In this document: positions 59,373 to 64,000 of the stretch, piece after piece | Layout: every line of letters starts with the position of its first letter | Numbering within the stretch: position 1 is the stretch's first letter | NCBI RefSeq assembly: GCF_003019035.1 | Contig: NZ_CP027447.1 | DNA: 64,000 bases | Reading direction: 5' to 3' (one strand) | Source of the DNA: Escherichia coli | Lineage (GTDB): Bacteria; Pseudomonadota; Gammaproteobacteria; Enterobacterales; Enterobacteriaceae | The notes under the pieces: model-generated | What the model saw: the letters and a program-made list of their open reading frames with translations, nothing else | Told to the model about the DNA's origin: nothing | Databases searched by the model: none | Position numbers and translations under genes: made by a program

Positions 59373-61125
59373 TGCTGATAACGCTGCTGCGGGCCGGCGT
59401 GGTCAGCGTGGCCATGACTTCATCCAGTGCGGCTTCCGGTACGCCGTCCGGGTACTGTGCCGTTAACTGGCGGTAATGTTCCGGCGTCCAGGTAAGGCCG
59501 TCGGCGCTGAACTTATCGCGCAGGGCTTTCGCGGCCTCCACATGAGTCATGGGACGTTGTTCAGTGCGCGGTCTGCGTACATCAGAGGCCTGACCGCGCT
59601 TCGGTATACAGGCCGGAAGTGTGGCGTCATCAATATGTTTATACGGGTCAAGCCGCCCGCCGAACGGCAGCGCCTTCGCCTTGCGTGCGGCAGCTGCATC
59701 TGCGGCGTTGTCTGTACCGGTGACCAGCGCTTCGGTTTCTTTTGCCGCCGTCTGTGCCGGTGTTTCCGGCAGGGCTTTGTAACTTTCGCCAAATACCGCC
59801 GCGCCTTCAGCAAAGCCAAACTCGTTCTTTCTGACCTCTTCGACCAGGAAGAACGTCTCGTGGCCGTCCTCACCGGTCAGAACCACCTGTGCCACATCGC
59901 TGCGCCATGGGTTACGGGTAATCATCAGTTTTTCACCAACCAGTACGCCCGGTACCGTTGATACGTCAAATTCAGTGCCCCGGAACGAGACACGAAGTTT
60001 TGGCGTGACTTTGCGGAGTTCTGGTGTCGTCACAGCCAGTTCACGGCATACCTCAACGGAAGGCGCTTTTTTCAGCTGCTCAGCAGTAATCTTCAGCCAG
60101 ATATCCGTGCGGGTTTTACCGTGGCGGCTGTGAACAGCTGTTGCGTTAAAGTGGCTACGCCATTTCGCGGCCAGCGCGTTGAGTTCTTCCAGACTGTGAA
60201 CCGGCCGGAACTTCAGACCCGGCTCCAGCTTGCGTTCGATAATGTCACGCGCCTTTTCCACCTGTCCGGTGGCGCGGGCGTTATGCGGCTTGTGCGCTAT
60301 CAGGTCGATGCCCAGTGAGCGGCACATGTTTTTCGTCATACCCGCGGTGTTTGCCGAGCCGGGGTCGAGATAGAGTATTTTCGGCACGCCGTGCAGCACG
60401 TCTGCGCCGCCACGCTCCTGCATGGCGTTGATAAGCACAGAACACAGGTTCTCACCGGATTCCGCACCCGTCACATACTCAACGTAAATCCAGCCGCTGG
60501 CATGGTCGGTAATCTCGTAACTCCACACGCGGTCACTGGCGATACGGGCAAGGTTAGCGGGCTTGTTCTTGTAGAACTTCGCGCTGTCCATCACCTGCAG
60601 CCCTTTGTGTCCATTGCTCAGGTAGTAAAGCGTGCAGAGAGAGGCATCAATCTGCCAGACATGATTGGGATGCAGACTGGCCACTTCGGTATGCGGCGCA
60701 GGGGCATCCAGTTGTTCCGGGTGCAGGCCATAGTTACGCAGGGCACGGCTGATAGCATCTTCGGACAACGGGAAAAACTCACCGGTGGTTTCATCTGTTC
60801 TGCCTGCGGAGATAAAGCCGTTAGCCCGCAGGGTTTCCACTGCATCTGCGATGGAATAGAGACGCTTACCGTTCTTGCGGGTGGCCTCACGTAGTGTGGC
60901 AGATATCAGCGCGGCTTCGTCGCGGGTCAGGGCGCTGCGCCCGGCATCGGCGCGTTTTTTGCGTTTATCAGTCACAGAGACCTCCTTCAGCCTGCGCAGC
61001 AGAGTGGCGCGGGACATGCCAAGTTCAGCACAGGCGGCGTCATATATTGCACCACGTTTACCATGCCCCGCGTCACGTGCCGCGCGGGCGACATAAACCA
61101 GTCGTTCAGTCAGGGCAGCATTCAT
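59356..61125 (-). CDS. DDE transposase (Mu A-like, rve/integrase-core type)
   Basis: 589 aa; N-terminal HTH region, central DDE-type core (HVWQIDASL..., LYLDPGSANTAG..., distal E), C-terminal extension; paired with the AAA+ ATPase gene. Confidence 0.8.
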   Translation of the reverse strand: MNAALTERLVYVARAARDAGHGKRGAIYDAACAELGMSRATLLRRLKEVSVTDKRKKRADAGRSALTRDEAALISATLREATRKNGKRLYSIADAVETLRANGFISAGRTDETTGEFFPLSEDAISRALRNYGLHPEQLDAPAPHTEVASLHPNHVWQIDASLCTLYYLSNGHKGLQVMDSAKFYKNKPANLARIASDRVWSYEITDHASGWIYVEYVTGAESGENLCSVLINAMQERGGADVLHGVPKILYLDPGSANTAGMTKNMCRSLGIDLIAHKPHNARATGQVEKARDIIERKLEPGLKFRPVHSLEELNALAAKWRSHFNATAVHSRHGKTRTDIWLKITAEQLKKAPSVEVCRELAVTTPELRKVTPKLRVSFRGTEFDVSTVPGVLVGEKLMITRNPWRSDVAQVVLTGEDGHETFFLVEEVRKNEFGFAEGAAVFGESYKALPETPAQTAAKETEALVTGTDNAADAAAARKAKALPFGGRLDPYKHIDDATLPACIPKRGQASDVRRPRTEQRPMTHVEAAKALRDKFSADGLTWTPEHYRQLTAQYPDGVPEAALDEVMATLTTPARSSVISIVNGN

Positions 61126-61128
61126 TGG

Positions 61129-62043
61129 TTATGCCTCCAGCCCGTTAATCTGTGGCGTCGGCTCAGTCAGCCATGAAGGCGCGACATCGCCTGTTGGCTC
61201 GTCCGGCAGGTCAAATGTGGAGCGCAGGCTACGCGCTGTGCTTTCCAGTTGACAGACCAGGCCTGCCATGAAGTCTCTGGGGGTATCAATCATGTTTTCA
61301 GCACAATATGCGCACAGCGTCTCAAAAGCGCTGGACAGTCGAACGGCGATAGCAGATTCCGCCTCAACCGCTAATGCTGTCACTTCCGCCCGCAGCTTCT
61401 TAACCTCTTCATCAGGCTCAGGCGGCTGAATACGGGATTTCTTCTCCAGTTTTGTGGAAAGCGAGTCGATTTTTTCGTTTTTGTCGGCCAGCACGCGCTG
61501 TTGTGCTGCGTTGGTTTCGCGGGCTTCGCGCAGGGCCTGACGCAATTCACGTACTGACATGCGATCAACGTCGTCAAGCGTCAGGCCGGCAACTGTGCCG
61601 CCGTCGGCCAATTCATCAAGTTCTTCATTATCCAGAACCATCAGGTCGTACAGTTTGGCTTTCCCCAAAACGCTCAACGTTGAGCGTTTTGTTGGCTCAT
61701 CACCTTCTCCCAAAAACTTCATACTGGCTTGCATCATGCGGCGAGCAACTTGTGGTGCAAGTCCGAGTTCATTTTCTAAAATGTTTGTAAAATCACCGTG
61801 TGGCTCATTTTCTTTTAAGATGATCAGCCGTTTACCCGCTTCCAGCATAGATTCAGCACTCTGCGCCATATAAAAACGTGCTTCGTGAACAATGCGATCA
61901 CGTTCATAAGGCAGTCCATCACCAAACTGCTGCATAATTTCCATGCGATGCTGTGTCATAGCGTTCAAATTGACATTGATGTTATCTGACAGCGGAACCT
62001 CAACATTCAGTTCAGTGTTAACGGGTGATTTGGTGCGTCCCAT
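61129..62043 (-). CDS. hypothetical phage protein (304 aa), predicted coiled-coil-rich
   Basis: ORF immediately upstream of the transposase gene; charged heptad-like central region. Confidence 0.45.
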   Translation of the reverse strand: MGRTKSPVNTELNVEVPLSDNINVNLNAMTQHRMEIMQQFGDGLPYERDRIVHEARFYMAQSAESMLEAGKRLIILKENEPHGDFTNILENELGLAPQVARRMMQASMKFLGEGDEPTKRSTLSVLGKAKLYDLMVLDNEELDELADGGTVAGLTLDDVDRMSVRELRQALREARETNAAQQRVLADKNEKIDSLSTKLEKKSRIQPPEPDEEVKKLRAEVTALAVEAESAIAVRLSSAFETLCAYCAENMIDTPRDFMAGLVCQLESTARSLRSTFDLPDEPTGDVAPSWLTEPTPQINGLEA

Positions 62044-62053
62044 TGATTACTCC

Positions 62054-62362
62054 TTACAAACGACTACCTGAAATAACTCGTTGGTTGATTTCGTTAATAC
62101 GATCCTGTGCACGCGCCATCTCGTGACTGTGAGCCATGGCGATCTGTAGTAACTGGATTCCCGGTGCGAAACGTCCGTTCTCTAATTTCATGGCCAGTCC
62201 CTCTTCAATAAGGGTATTAAGTGCTCGATTGATATTCGCCGGGGACTCCCCCAGGGCTGATGCCAGTTCACCGTTAGAAACACCGTTCAGAGCATGACCG
62301 CGTAGAGCTTTGAGTACACGTAGGATGCGGCTCCCGGAACTGGAAATATTTACTTTACTCAT
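62054..62362 (-). CDS. small winged-HTH protein (IclR-like DNA-binding domain only)
   Basis: ORF 62054..62425; likely start at MSKVNISSSGSRILRVLKALRGH...; start uncertain. Confidence 0.45.
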   Translation of the reverse strand: MSKVNISSSGSRILRVLKALRGHALNGVSNGELASALGESPANINRALNTLIEEGLAMKLENGRFAPGIQLLQIAMAHSHEMARAQDRINEINQRVISGSRL

Positions 62363-62414
62363 GTCACATTTCCATTTTTGCAATATGTGATAACCTGTTG
62401 CATATGTGGAAAAT

Positions 62415-62603
62415 TTATGCCGCATTTGACGTGGGTTTTAATCCCAGTTTTACGGCAATTTCATGGGCTTTGCCGTAACGAGCTTTGGTCTGTCCATTGA
62501 GAACACGATAGACCTCATTGCGGCTGTAGCCGTGTTCTTCGGCCCAGCGGGTAAACGTGATACCACGCTGACGGAAGAGATTTTTAACTTGTTCGGAAGT
62601 CAT
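62415..62603 (-). CDS. ner: Ner-like DNA-binding protein (Mu Ner/Nlp family)
   Basis: 62 aa; aligns with the Ner/Nlp HTH pattern (G.t..rWaee.G.s...vyrvL.G....kG..IA..LG.kP); first gene of the early operon, divergent from the repressor. Confidence 0.65.
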   Translation of the reverse strand: MTSEQVKNLFRQRGITFTRWAEEHGYSRNEVYRVLNGQTKARYGKAHEIAVKLGLKPTSNAA

Positions 62604-62640
62604 TGTTGTCTCCTTTGTTGATGCAATGATGTTTGTTTTA

Positions 62641-62695
62641 TATGTGATAGATTATGTGAACTATTGTTCTCATTGTCAATGAGGTTTATGTGAAT
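62641..62695. promoter_or_regulatory. candidate operator repeats in the repressor/ner divergent intergenic
   Basis: TATGTGA occurs three times (62641, 62653, 62687), the last two as TTATGTGAA; the third contains the repressor GTG start. Confidence 0.35.
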
Positions 62696-63115
62696 TTTGA
62701 TTCTCTTTGCGCGTCGCGGTTCAAAGCTGAGCGTTCGCGGTTATCACTCAAGCAGGCTGAAGTAGCAGCCCTTTGTGGCGTTTCAAGAGAAATGTGGGGG
62801 AAATATGAACGAGGGGTTGCTGTTCCCGGAGGTGAGTTACTTGCAGCCTTTGCAAGAATTGGGGCCAATGTACAGTTCATTCTTACCGGGGAGTCATCAG
62901 GTATAACTTTATCACGTGATGAAATGGAGTTACTGCAGCACTACCGGCAAGCACCGTTACAGGTCAAAGGTTCAGTTTTGTCGGCTTTGACTACTGGCTC
63001 CTCCAGAGAACGGGCGGAACAGGTTATTCATGGAGATGTTCTGGGGAATGTTATCAAAGGTAACGTAACCATAGGAACAGGTGGAATAATGAACAAAAAT
63101 ACCAAGAGAAGATGA
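62690..63115 (+). CDS. XRE-family (Cro/C1-type HTH) phage repressor candidate
   Basis: 141 aa, GTG start; N-terminal HTH (LSLKQAEVAALCGVSREMWGKYERG); divergent from the ner-transposase operon. Confidence 0.7.
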   Translation: MNFDSLCASRFKAERSRLSLKQAEVAALCGVSREMWGKYERGVAVPGGELLAAFARIGANVQFILTGESSGITLSRDEMELLQHYRQAPLQVKGSVLSALTTGSSRERAEQVIHGDVLGNVIKGNVTIGTGGIMNKNTKRR

Positions 63116-64000
63116 GTAAAGAGAAGCAAACAGTTAACGGGGATGTGGGTAACGTTGTCAGCGGTGATGTTACCATTCATAACTATTCTGCTGACATACT
63201 TCCTTCTGCCCAGCAACCAATTTCGTTGCTGCAAAAACGCGATTTACACAGATTGATGGATGAATTGGTTGATCTGGGGGAAAGTAAGCGCGAGCTATGG
63301 ATGACGATCCACACGAAACTTAATACCAAAACAGTTAATGAAATGACTGCGGCTGATTATCATGGTGCGGTTGAGATCCTTCAGAGATATGCACAACAGA
63401 TCCAGAATATGAAGGACTGTAATCTTCTGGTCAGCAAAATAATGGCGCTTACTGACCCTGGGTATCGTCTTGACCGTGACAGATACTGTCTGAAGCATTT
63501 CGGTACAACCCATCTTAAAGGCCTGGACAAAGAGCAGTTGCAGGCTGTGTTTGGTTATTTTGATGATCTGCTGAATATTCGTGATGAGAGTAAAACTCTA
63601 TCACCTCCATCGGAAAGCGGTGCAAAATCAGTCGCAACTGTACCAACCAGAAGCCGGAAGCCTCATGTAGTAGTGTTGGGGGGAGCGTTAGTTCTTGTAG
63701 CAATATTTTTCGTGGGAATGATTGTGTTCGCTGGTAAATGGGGAAATGCTAAAGCAGTAGCTTCTACTGAAACCAGCGTTTTTAACATTAAAACCAACGA
63801 CAAAATAATAGAAGATTCCATCCCCGCACTGCGCAGCATGTTTCCAGGATTAAATAAGTACTCAGATGATTTCCATTCGGTTTCAAGCTACAAGCAAAAA
63901 ACGGGCTGGCATACCCTTAAATTTACTGTATCAGCAAAGGCATCCGTCCCCGAAAATTATAGTGTTAAGGGCAAGGTTTGTTACATTAACATAAACCCTG
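63112..64000 (+). CDS. hypothetical single-pass membrane protein, 3' partial (runs off window end)
   Basis: Hand-translated open frame from ATG 63112 with no stop before 64000 (absent from ORF track because incomplete); ATG overlaps repressor stop (ATGA); TM helix VVVLGGALVLVAIFFVGMIVFAG. Confidence 0.6.
   Translation, partial: MSKEKQTVNGDVGNVVSGDVTIHNYSADILPSAQQPISLLQKRDLHRLMDELVDLGESKRELWMTIHTKLNTKTVNEMTAADYHGAVEILQRYAQQIQNMKDCNLLVSKIMALTDPGYRLDRDRYCLKHFGTTHLKGLDKEQLQAVFGYFDDLLNIRDESKTLSPPSESGAKSVATVPTRSRKPHVVVLGGALVLVAIFFVGMIVFAGKWGNAKAVASTETSVFNIKTNDKIIEDSIPALRSMFPGLNKYSDDFHSVSSYKQKTGWHTLKFTVSAKASVPENYSVKGKVCYININP

What the first reader, a model, noticed from the sequence alone, without database searches (positions are those of the whole stretch)
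62604..62695. Triple TATGTGA motif in the repressor/ner divergent control region
The 86-bp intergenic between ner and the repressor contains TATGTGA at 62641, 62653 and 62687 (the last two as TTATGTGAA); the third copy includes the repressor GTG start codon. This looks like an operator array for the genetic switch of the element.
Basis: seen in the sequence. Interest (0 to 1): 0.4.

Follow-up and report, generated by a model that had tools for sequence, protein, structure and literature searches.

The report
Prophage switch: palindromic operators, not TATGTGA
The three TATGTGA copies sit in the on/off control region of a Mu-like prophage, but the conserved repressor-binding sites there are two 16-base palindromes (GAGAAC-N4-GTTCTC), so this is an ordinary phage switch that was read with the wrong repeat unit.

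Summary
The three TATGTGA copies are at the stated coordinates. Their statistical support is weak: any 7-mer occurs three times in 4% of composition-preserving shuffles of the 92 bp. The middle copy depends on T62657, which was found in none of 5,426 complete E. coli genomes. The 126 close relatives read TATGAGA or a variant there.

The element is a BcepMu-like transposable prophage. I compared 35 non-identical loci encoding repressor relatives (down to about 40% identity) and about 60 loci anchored on the ner-like gene. The conserved block is ATTATG-AGAACnnnnGTTCTC-nTTGTCAA. This is a 16-bp palindrome, O1 (62656-62671), filling the spacer of the leftward early promoter (-10 CATAAT, -35 TTGACA). 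A degenerate second copy, O2 (62690-62705), covers the repressor start codon.

Heteroimmune relatives carry different palindromes at the same position, and these covary with the repressor's recognition helix. Copy 1 lies in the ner-linked leader, which heteroimmune phages share.

The operator idea is therefore partly right, but the unit, symmetry and number are wrong. This is a new member of a known kind, of low to moderate interest. Binding has not been tested.

The parts
62690..63115 (+). Repressor gene, 141 aa, with an XRE/Cro-C1 type helix-turn-helix (recognition helix ...GVSREMWGKYERG...). It has no S24 peptidase domain. It starts at GTG 62690.
   Evidence: Pfam HTH_31 30.7 bits and HTH_3 23.2 bits. 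Closest solved structure is the P22 C2 N-terminal domain, E=9e-5. The start position is conserved as ATG or GTG in relatives. In this window the upstream ATG at 62654 is followed directly by TGA.
62415..62603 (-). 'ner'-like small DNA-binding protein, 62 aa. It is the first gene of the early (transposition) operon.
   Evidence: TIGR04111 BcepMu_gp16 family, 94.4 bits against a cut-off of 34. PHROG 925, E=1e-32. Pfam gives only a sub-threshold HTH_31 hit and no Ner-family hit.
62651..62656 (-). -10 hexamer CATAAT of the early promoter ('Pner').
   Evidence: The promoter scan scores 11/12 with a 17-nt spacer. ATTATG is conserved in at least 80% of 34 non-identical relatives and as (C/A)ATAAT in heteroimmune relatives.
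62674..62679 (-). -35 hexamer TTGACA of Pner.
   Evidence: TTGTCAA is conserved in at least 80% of relatives.
62656..62671 (.). Operator O1, GtGAACTATTGTTCTC (family consensus GAGAACTnnAGTTCTC). It is a 16-bp dyad filling the Pner spacer and touching the -10. Lower-case t marks the private SNP at 62657.
   Evidence: It is present with 0-2 mismatches in essentially every repressor-relative locus. L024 shows a symmetric double change, GCGAAC..GTTCGC. Heteroimmune relatives have a different palindrome at this position, which tracks the recognition helix.
62690..62705 (.). Operator-like site O2, GTGAATTTTGATTCTC. It overlaps the start codon and codons 2-6 of the repressor and begins 34 bp downstream of the start of O1.
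   Evidence: It starts 33-35 bp after O1 in most of the repressor-relative loci (30-41 bp in a few). Residues 4 and 6 vary, yet nnT-TCT-C is kept. Ser5 is TCT in 21 of 22 loci, while a control invariant Ser uses all six codons. Analogous second copies lie over the start codon in at least five other immunity types.
62681..62684 (+). Shine-Dalgarno GAGG for the repressor, 5 nt before the GTG.
   Evidence: Read directly from the sequence. A purine-rich AAGGGG or ATGAGG occupies this position in relatives.
62641..62647 (+). TATGTGA copy 1. It lies at about +1 of Pner, inside the ner-linked leader module, and is not repressor-specific.
   Evidence: It lies 4-10 nt downstream of the -10 (geometry). 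Heteroimmune relatives read TATGTGt, TgTGTGA or TATaTGt here. It is absent from distant repressor relatives.
62653..62659 (+). TATGTGA copy 2. It combines four bases of the -10 hexamer (TATG) with the first bases of O1. It is an exact copy only because of T62657.
62687..62693 (+). TATGTGA copy 3. It combines three spacer bases with the GTG start codon and the left arm of O2.
   Evidence: The 'TAT' before the start codon is not conserved in relatives.
62604..62650 (-). ner leader with SD GGAG and the CATCA-TTG-CATCA repeat. It is more conserved than the ner coding sequence. It is a candidate site for the Ner-like protein and/or the unmapped repressor promoter.
   Evidence: Identity is 94% over 62605-62656 against 83.8% over 62415-62655 in roughly 450 heteroimmune E. 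coli prophages. The ATC(A/T)TTGCATCA core persists in ner relatives of about 70% identity.
62669..62683 (.). Perfect 7-1-7 palindrome CTCATTG-T-CAATGAG. It is a by-product of the O1 right arm plus the -35 plus the SD, and is not conserved as a dyad.
   Evidence: The right arm varies in relatives (CAAGGGG, CAAGAGG, CAACGGA...) while TTGTCAA stays fixed.

Best explanation
The 86-bp gap is the lysis/lysogeny switch of a BcepMu-like transposable prophage.

The early operon (ner-like gp16, an IclR-type HTH gene, DUF3102, the rve transposase and the AAA+ B protein) is read leftward from a near-consensus sigma-70 promoter: -35 TTGACA at 62679..62674, a 17-nt spacer, and -10 CATAAT at 62656..62651.

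The divergently encoded XRE-type repressor most likely binds as a dimer to O1 (62656-62671). O1 is a 16-bp dyad (family consensus GAGAAC-N4-GTTCTC) that fills the promoter spacer, so binding would exclude RNA polymerase and keep transposition genes silent.

A weaker, half-degenerate copy, O2 (62690-62705), begins 34 bp downstream of O1's start and covers the repressor's own start codon. It most likely serves cooperative binding and/or negative autoregulation.

The TATGTGA triple is not the functional unit:
- Copy 2 is the -10 hexamer plus the left edge of O1, made exact by a strain-private A-to-T change at the least conserved arm position.
- Copy 3 is spacer plus start codon plus the left edge of O2.
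- Copy 1 lies at the transcription start of the ner promoter, in a leader shared by heteroimmune phages. If it is bound at all, the Ner-like protein is the likelier partner.

What is shown: the sequence features, their conservation, the covariation and the SNP distribution. What is inferred: binding, the dimer state, repression, and the role of O2. What is unknown: the repressor's own promoter.
For: 1. The promoter scores 11/12 and is the only sigma-70-like site in 62300-62800.

2. The block ATTATG-AGAACTnnAGTTCTC-nTTGTCAA is conserved at 80% or more per column in 34 non-identical loci. Their repressors are 99% to about 40% identical and their flanks are unalignable.

3. O1 is found with 0-2 mismatches, and O2 starts 33-35 bp later in most of these loci (30-41 bp in a few).

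4. Dyad symmetry is maintained by a symmetric double change in L024, GCGAAC..GTTCGC.

5. The operator covaries with the recognition helix and is independent of ner:
- SRE(M/I)WG(K/R)YE goes with GAGAAC..GTTCTC, including L113, which has a different ner leader.
- RETWSRYE goes with TGTGA-N8-TCACA in both L018 and L125.
- VKKLxQLxYE goes with GGTAT-N8-ATACC in both L114 and L118.
- E. coli prophages sharing the same ner and leader but encoding other repressors carry TGCTCATAATTATGAGCA, TGTCTAAAAATTTAGACA or TATCCCAAAAATGGGATA at the same position.

6. O2 is under DNA-level constraint. Ser5 is TCT in 21 of 22 loci, against six codons used at a control Ser. Residues 4 and 6 vary but keep nnT and Cnn.

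7. The conservation is not due to coding. The upstream ATG is out of frame with the repressor in relatives with 33- or 35-bp spacing. In this window that ATG is followed by TGA.

8. T62657 is private.
Against: - There is no binding, footprint or transcript data of any kind. Everything rests on comparative sequence analysis.
- The repressor's own promoter was not found; the scan reports no + strand sigma-70 match. The way O1 and O2 affect repressor synthesis is therefore guesswork.
- The left arm of O2 is forced by the start codon, and part of its conservation could reflect translation-initiation context rather than protein binding.
- O1 and O2 are not exactly in helical phase (34 bp is about 3.2 turns).
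- Several relatives (L017, L022, L095) also carry GTGAAC in O1, so the window's allele may be neutral.
- Relatedness among loci inflates simple counts.
Confidence: 0.75

Rival explanations
1. One reading: TATGTGA (or TTATGTGAA) is a direct-repeat operator unit, and three copies form an array bound by the repressor and/or the Ner-like protein.
For: Three exact copies lie in 53 bp. Any 7-mer occurring three times has P=0.04 in shuffles. A related half-site, TGTGA(T), really is the dyad arm in a different immunity type (L018, L125). ATATGTGATA recurs at 62383 downstream of ner.
Against: Copy 2 exists only through a private SNP; 108 of 126 related genomes read TATGAGA. The conserved unit across relatives is the inverted repeat GAGAAC-N4-GTTCTC. 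Copy 1 is shared by prophages with unrelated repressors and is variable in them. The 'TAT' before the start codon is not conserved. Spacings of 12 and 34 bp show no regular phasing.
Confidence: 0.07
2. The perfect palindrome CTCATTG-T-CAATGAG (62669-62683), which covers the -35 hexamer, is the repressor operator.
For: It is a perfect 7-1-7 dyad in the window and its close relatives, centred on the -35 of Pner.
Against: Its right arm is not conserved in relatives that keep the same recognition helix (CAAGGGG, CAAGAGG, CAACGGA...). Its left arm is simply the right arm of O1 plus the -35. Heteroimmune relatives place their dyads in the spacer, not over the -35.
Confidence: 0.08
3. The conserved ATGAGAAC...GTTCTC block is protein-coding: the N-terminal extension of a 153-aa repressor starting at ATG 62654, as annotated by PGAP in IAI39 and A24. 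On this view it is not a DNA site.
For: RefSeq annotates WP_001259268.1 from that ATG in IAI39 and A24. The 36-nt stretch is open and in frame in those genomes.
Against: In this window the ATG is followed by TGA. AH20E044 has GTG there and PGAP then calls the 141-aa form. Relatives with 33- or 35-bp spacing put the ATG out of frame. No SD precedes 62654, whereas GAGG precedes 62690. The start at 62690 alternates between ATG and GTG across relatives. The block is palindromic and includes promoter hexamers.
Confidence: 0.05
4. Copy 1 (62641) and the copy at 62384 are binding sites of the Ner-like gp16 protein or the IclR-type HTH protein. They would give autoregulation at the Pner start and control downstream of ner, independently of the immunity repressor.
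For: The 10-mer ATATGTGATA occurs at 62640 and 62383. Both sites are conserved together with the ner and IclR-like modules across heteroimmune E. coli prophages. The ner leader is more conserved than the ner coding sequence.
Against: In the large L069-L094 group the two sites are dissimilar (CTAACACACATAAGG against GTGTTTCATATATAG). A 10-mer shared within about 400 bp of AT-rich DNA is not rare; my estimate is roughly 0.1. Conservation at +1 may reflect promoter or leader function instead. There is no dyad symmetry.
Confidence: 0.25

Closest known systems
Phage Mu / D108 early control region (c repressor, Ner, divergent Pe and Pc, operators O1-O3)
   Same: The genetic layout matches: the repressor is divergent from a small Ner-position regulator that heads the transposase operon (A = rve DDE, B = AAA+), and a repressor operator overlaps the early promoter. 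As in Mu, the small regulator's site appears to be separate from the repressor's, because ner does not covary with O1.
   Different: The repressor is an XRE/Cro-C1 HTH protein, not a Mu c-type protein. The small regulator belongs to the BcepMu gp16 family, not the Ner family. There are two short dyads rather than Mu's three extended operator regions with an IHF site (the Mu details are from my own knowledge). The switch lies inside the prophage next to the lysis genes, not at its left end.
BcepMu / KS10 family (gp17 repressor, gp16 DNA-binding protein)
   Same: The ner-like protein meets TIGR04111 (BcepMu_gp16). KS10 has the same pair: gp13, a repressor similar to BcepMu gp17 and an E. coli prophage protein, and gp14, similar to gp16 (PMC2628397). 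Holin and SLT transglycosylase genes follow the repressor region in IAI39.
   Different: No operator or promoter has been described for this family in the papers I could search. The dyads and their architecture reported here come from comparison only.
Lambdoid CI/Cro and P22 C2 or 434 repressor operators
   Same: The same HTH fold class: P22 C2 N-terminal domain E=9e-5, 434 repressor E=0.02. The sites are short dyad operators overlapping a core promoter, with more than one site, and the immunity module is exchanged as a cassette.
   Different: There are two sites starting about 30-34 bp apart, not a tripartite OR with roughly 20-24 bp spacing. There is no S24 autocleavage domain. The Cro-position protein does not share the repressor's operators. 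O2 lies over the repressor's start codon.
B. subtilis LexA box GAAC-N4-GTTC and the SinR site GTTCTCT
   Same: The core letters are identical: O1 contains GAAC-N4-GTTC (PMC4234289), and its arm GTTCTC matches the SinR consensus half-site. SinR is also an XRE-type HTH protein (PMC3163267).
   Different: This is a resemblance of sequence only. The proteins and hosts are unrelated. The SinR duplex has its half-sites in the opposite relative orientation (GTTCTCT-AA-AGAGAAC). I did not test any homology beyond the generic HTH.

Membership tests
Mu Ner family (Pfam HTH_35 type) | Sequence match to the Ner-family profile | tested here: not met
   The Pfam scan of the 62-aa protein gives only HTH_31 at 24.2 bits, below its cut-off of 27, and no Ner-family hit.
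BcepMu gp16 family (TIGR04111) | Score above NCBIfam's curated cut-off over the full length | tested here: met
   94.4 bits against a cut-off of 34; residues 2-56 match profile positions 1-55 of 55.
XRE / Cro-C1 type HTH repressors (Pfam HTH_3, HTH_31) | N-terminal five-helix HTH domain above the gathering score | tested here: met
   HTH_31 30.7 bits (cut-off 27) and HTH_3 23.2 bits (cut-off 23), residues 10-56. P22 C2 N-terminal domain E=9e-5.
LexA-like autocleavable CI repressors | C-terminal S24 peptidase domain | tested here: not met
   No Peptidase_S24 or any other Pfam hit in residues 70-141.
Mu c-type repressor and operator system | Mu-type winged-helix DNA-binding domain in the repressor | tested here: not met
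   The Pfam, NCBIfam and PHROG scans return only XRE-type families.
Repressor operator within a core promoter | Dyad-symmetric site overlapping the -35 / spacer / -10 of the regulated promoter | tested here: met
   O1 (62656-71) lies between TTGACA and CATAAT. The same geometry is seen in at least 8 immunity types.
Repressor operator within a core promoter | The site covaries with the DNA-recognition helix of the cognate repressor | tested here: met
   Three helix classes each recur with their own dyad in independent ner and leader contexts.
Repressor operator within a core promoter | Specific binding by the repressor and repression of transcription | not testable with these tools
   This needs EMSA or footprinting and reporter assays.
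Transposable (Mu/BcepMu-like) prophage | A DDE (rve) transposase plus an AAA+ B-type ATPase downstream of the switch, with phage late genes nearby | tested here: met
   rve domain in the 589-aa protein and AAA_22 in the 397-aa protein. Gam, holin, SLT and DUF3486 genes lie in the IAI39 copy. 93% identity to Escherichia phage PhiKM over 75% of 6 kb.

The most novel reading that the evidence does not exclude
BcepMu-like transposable phages may share a switch design that has not been described. One strong dyad sits in the spacer of the early promoter. A second, degenerate dyad about three helical turns away is embedded in the repressor's own start codon and first five or six codons, so the N-terminus of the protein is dual-coded by its own operator. 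Immunity cassettes recombine exactly at the -10 hexamer. Within that frame, the window's private A-to-T change at 62657 would be a natural O1 operator variant that may alter repression or immunity.
Probability: 0.4. Interest if true: 0.4.

Novelty: new member of a known kind. Interest (0 to 1): 0.25.

Why it matters
The practical value is for annotation and for people who study these prophages.

- The analysis gives testable operator and promoter coordinates for a prophage family present in roughly a tenth of complete E. coli genomes. About 570-620 of 5,426 carry a ner-module relative, and 126 carry this immunity type.
- It shows that immunity specificity can be read from a dyad in the early-promoter spacer.
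- It flags a probable start-codon over-extension in RefSeq annotation.
- It shows that the repeat noticed by eye is largely a by-product of promoter and operator edges plus a private SNP.

It does not change how phage switches are understood.

Tried and rejected
- **Window-wide enrichment of TATGTGA.** It is not enriched: 8 copies against 6.3 expected.
- **The 7-1-7 palindrome over the -35 as the operator.** This was my first idea. I rejected it because its right arm is not conserved.
- **Other O1-like sites in the window.** The only other site within 1 mismatch is 60438-60453, inside the transposase gene. It is equally present in heteroimmune relatives, so it is explained by coding conservation.
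- **A + strand sigma-70 promoter for the repressor.** The scan found none. By eye the candidates are the extended -10 TGnTAGATT at 62645-53, GATTAT at 62650-55, and TTGATG-17-TATGTG. All are weak or lack a proper -35 or the final T, so I left this unresolved.
- **Known RNA families in 61900-63200.** Only one chance-level hit, E=0.73.
- **Literature on operators of BcepMu-type switches, the GAGAAC/GTTCTC dyad, or phage PhiKM.** Nothing relevant was found.

Full report
**What is at the coordinates**

The region lies between a 62-aa ORF on the minus strand (62415-62603) and a 141-aa ORF on the plus strand that starts with GTG at 62690. TATGTGA occurs at 62641, 62653 and 62687. The last two are TTATGTGAA, and the last contains the GTG. 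A fourth copy lies at 62384 and a TATGTGg at 62403, both downstream of the small ORF.

**The element**

Leftward of the gap lie five genes:
- the small HTH protein;
- an IclR-type winged-helix protein (62054-62365);
- a DUF3102 protein;
- a 589-aa rve-domain transposase;
- a 397-aa AAA_22 ATPase.

In E. coli IAI39 the same block is followed on one side by Gam and on the other by holin, SLT transglycosylase and DUF3486 genes. The small protein meets NCBIfam TIGR04111, 'BcepMu gp16 family', at 94.4 bits against a cut-off of 34. It showed no Mu Ner-family hit in Pfam.

The rightward protein is an XRE/Cro-C1 HTH protein (HTH_31 30.7 bits). It is closest to the P22 C2 N-terminal domain (E=9e-5) and has no S24 peptidase domain. 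KS10 and BcepMu have the same pair, gp17-like repressor and gp16-like DNA-binding protein (PMC2628397).

This is therefore the switch region of a BcepMu-like transposable prophage. It is 99.8% identical over 2 kb to one in E. coli A24, and 126 of 5,426 complete E. coli genomes carry it.

**Is the triple more than chance?**

The evidence is marginal.
- The window holds 8 copies against 6.3 expected.
- The 92 bp are T/G-rich. In 20,000 dinucleotide-preserving shuffles, some 7-mer appears at least three times in 4.0% and some 9-mer at least twice in 11.6%.
- No complete E. coli genome matches the 92 bp exactly.
- The version with A at 62657 (copy 2 = TATGAGA) is exact in 108 of 126 genomes.
- A 53-nt probe that requires T62657 finds nothing.
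- A24 and IAI39 read gattATGAGAAC, and AH20E044 reads gattGTGAGAAC.
- With the common allele only two copies remain, which 70% of shuffles reach.

**What is conserved instead**

I fetched 49 loci encoding relatives of the repressor, 99% to about 40% identical. I aligned the DNA upstream of their start codons.

The flanks diverge completely, but one block stays: ATTATG-AGAACTnnAGTTCTC-nTTGTCAA. On the minus strand this reads TTGACA, a 17-nt spacer, then CATAAT. That is exactly the promoter the consensus scan finds in the window (11 of 12 matches; -35 at 62679..62674, -10 at 62656..62651).

The spacer is filled by a 16-bp dyad, GAGAAC-N4-GTTCTC, which I call O1 (window 62656-62671, GtGAACTATTGTTCTC). 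It occurs with 0-2 mismatches in essentially every locus. L024 carries a symmetric double change (GCGAAC..GTTCGC), which preserves the dyad.

The perfect palindrome CTCATTG-T-CAATGAG (62669-62683) first looked like the operator. It is not conserved: its right arm varies freely, and its left arm is simply the O1 right arm plus the -35.

**A second site**

A degenerate copy starts 33-35 bp after O1 in most of these loci (30-41 bp in a few), and it begins at the repressor's start codon (window 62690-62705, GTGAATTTTGATTCTC). It overlaps codons 1-6, so I checked whether its conservation could be explained at the protein level.
- Residue 4 varies (D, G, N, S, C, I) but its codon almost always ends in T.
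- Residue 6 varies (L, H, Q, R) but begins with C.
- Ser5 is TCT in 21 of 22 loci.
- The invariant Ser of the recognition helix uses all six Ser codons in the same loci.

That pattern points to selection on the DNA.

**Covariation with the repressor, not with ner**

About 450 E. coli genomes carry a relative in which homology runs through ner and the leader up to 62655/62656. That is the outer edge of the -10, and homology stops there. Beyond that point each has a different repressor and a different palindrome in the spacer:
- TGCTCATAATTATGAGCA;
- TGTCTAAAAATTTAGACA;
- TATCCCAAAAATGGGATA;
- GGTG...CACC types.

Across 80 ner-anchored loci, the dyad tracks the recognition helix:
- SRE(M/I)WG(K/R)YE goes with GAGAAC..GTTCTC, even where the ner leader is different (L113).
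- RETWSRYE goes with TGTGA-N8-TCACA in both L018 and L125.
- VKKLxQLxYE goes with GGTAT-N8-ATACC in both L114 and L118.

L018 is telling. Its repressor has the same C-terminal domain as the window's (75% identity) but a different HTH, and it has a different dyad at the same place. At least five other immunity types also have a degenerate second copy 29-32 bp downstream, over the repressor start codon.

**What the three copies are**

- **Copy 2** is four bases of the -10 hexamer plus the start of O1. It is exact only because of the private T62657. That base is position 2 of the left arm, the least conserved arm position (about 1 bit against 1.6-2 bits for the others). L017, L022 and L095 also have T there.
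- **Copy 3** is three unconserved spacer bases plus the start codon and the left arm of O2.
- **Copy 1** lies 4-10 nt downstream of the -10, at about +1 of the ner promoter. It sits in the leader shared by heteroimmune phages, where it reads TATGTGt, TgTGTGA or TATaTGt. It is absent from distant repressor relatives, so it cannot be an immunity-specific repressor site.

**Mechanism (inferred)**

The repressor binds O1 as a dimer and blocks RNA polymerase at the early promoter. O2 adds cooperativity and/or autoregulation.

The Ner-position protein must act elsewhere, because it does not covary with O1. The leader is the obvious candidate. It is 94% identical between heteroimmune prophages, against about 81% for the ner coding sequence, and it carries a CATCA-TTG-CATCA repeat.

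I could not locate the repressor's own promoter.

**Coding alternative**

PGAP starts the repressor at ATG 62654 in IAI39 and A24, giving 153 aa. Several observations favour GTG 62690:
- the window has TGA directly after that ATG;
- AH20E044 is called at 141 aa;
- relatives with 33- or 35-bp spacing put that ATG out of frame;
- GAGG precedes 62690;
- the 62690 position alternates between ATG and GTG across relatives.

**Comparison and novelty**

The layout works like Mu: a repressor divergent from a Ner-position regulator that heads the transposase operon. The proteins, however, belong to other families, and the operators resemble the short dyads of lambdoid phages.

The core GAAC-N4-GTTC equals the B. 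subtilis LexA box (PMC4234289), and GTTCTC matches the SinR half-site (PMC3163267). These are resemblances of letters only.

I found no description of these operators in the searchable literature. I file this as a new member of a known kind. It is useful for annotation and gives clear experiments, but it would not surprise a specialist.

Noticed in passing
window 62654-62692; L001 5655-6116: RefSeq/PGAP starts the repressor at ATG 62654 in IAI39 and A24 (153 aa, WP_001259268.1), which makes the operator and promoter 'coding'. In this window that ATG is followed by TGA. The GTG/ATG at 62690 with its GAGG SD is the position conserved in relatives, so the 153-aa call is probably an over-extension.
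   Followed up: yes
window 62383-62392 and 62403-62409: A fourth TATGTGA (inside ATATGTGATA, the same 10-mer as at 62640) and a TATGTGg lie between the ner stop and the IclR-type HTH gene. TTATCACATAT (ner strand) is conserved together with that downstream gene in heteroimmune relatives. Another group has GTTTCATATAT instead. Its function is unknown; it may be a site for the gp16-like or IclR-like protein.
   Followed up: partly
window 62655/62656: The mosaic junction of the immunity cassette lies here. Homology with roughly 450 heteroimmune E. coli prophages runs through ner and the leader and stops exactly at the outer edge of the -10 hexamer. The repressor, its dyad and the -35 are exchanged as one unit.
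   Followed up: yes
window 62604-62656: The ner leader is more conserved between heteroimmune prophages (94%) than the ner coding sequence (about 81%). A CATCA-TTG-CATCA repeat just upstream of the SD persists in ner relatives of about 70% identity. It is a candidate Ner-like protein site or part of the repressor promoter.
   Followed up: partly
window 60438-60453: CAGAACACAGGTTCTC is the only other match to the O1 consensus within 1 mismatch in the 64 kb. It lies inside the transposase gene and is equally present in relatives with different repressors, so coding conservation is a sufficient explanation.
   Followed up: yes
window 63040-63175: The repressor's C-terminal tail (HGDVLGNVIKGNVTIGTG) and the N-terminus of the next protein (NGDVGNVVSGDVTIHNY; a roughly 328-aa protein with a predicted membrane segment, PHROG 10002, function unknown) share a GDVxGNVxxGxVTI motif. 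The two genes overlap by ATGA at 63112-63115. This may be a shared interaction motif or an accessory partner of the repressor.
   Followed up: no
L005 2724-2741; L082, L087: One heteroimmune type uses TATCC-N8-GGATA as its dyad. From memory, this is the consensus of the E. coli HipB operator; I did not check that. The repressor there has the helix ASYKSQLRWEKD.
   Followed up: no
L018 1402-1899 versus window 62690-63115: This looks like a natural domain swap. The L018/L019 repressor shares the window repressor's C-terminal domain (about 75% identity from residue 10) but has a different HTH (GIKRETWSRYE) and a different dyad, ATGTGAtcaataagTCACAT.
   Followed up: partly
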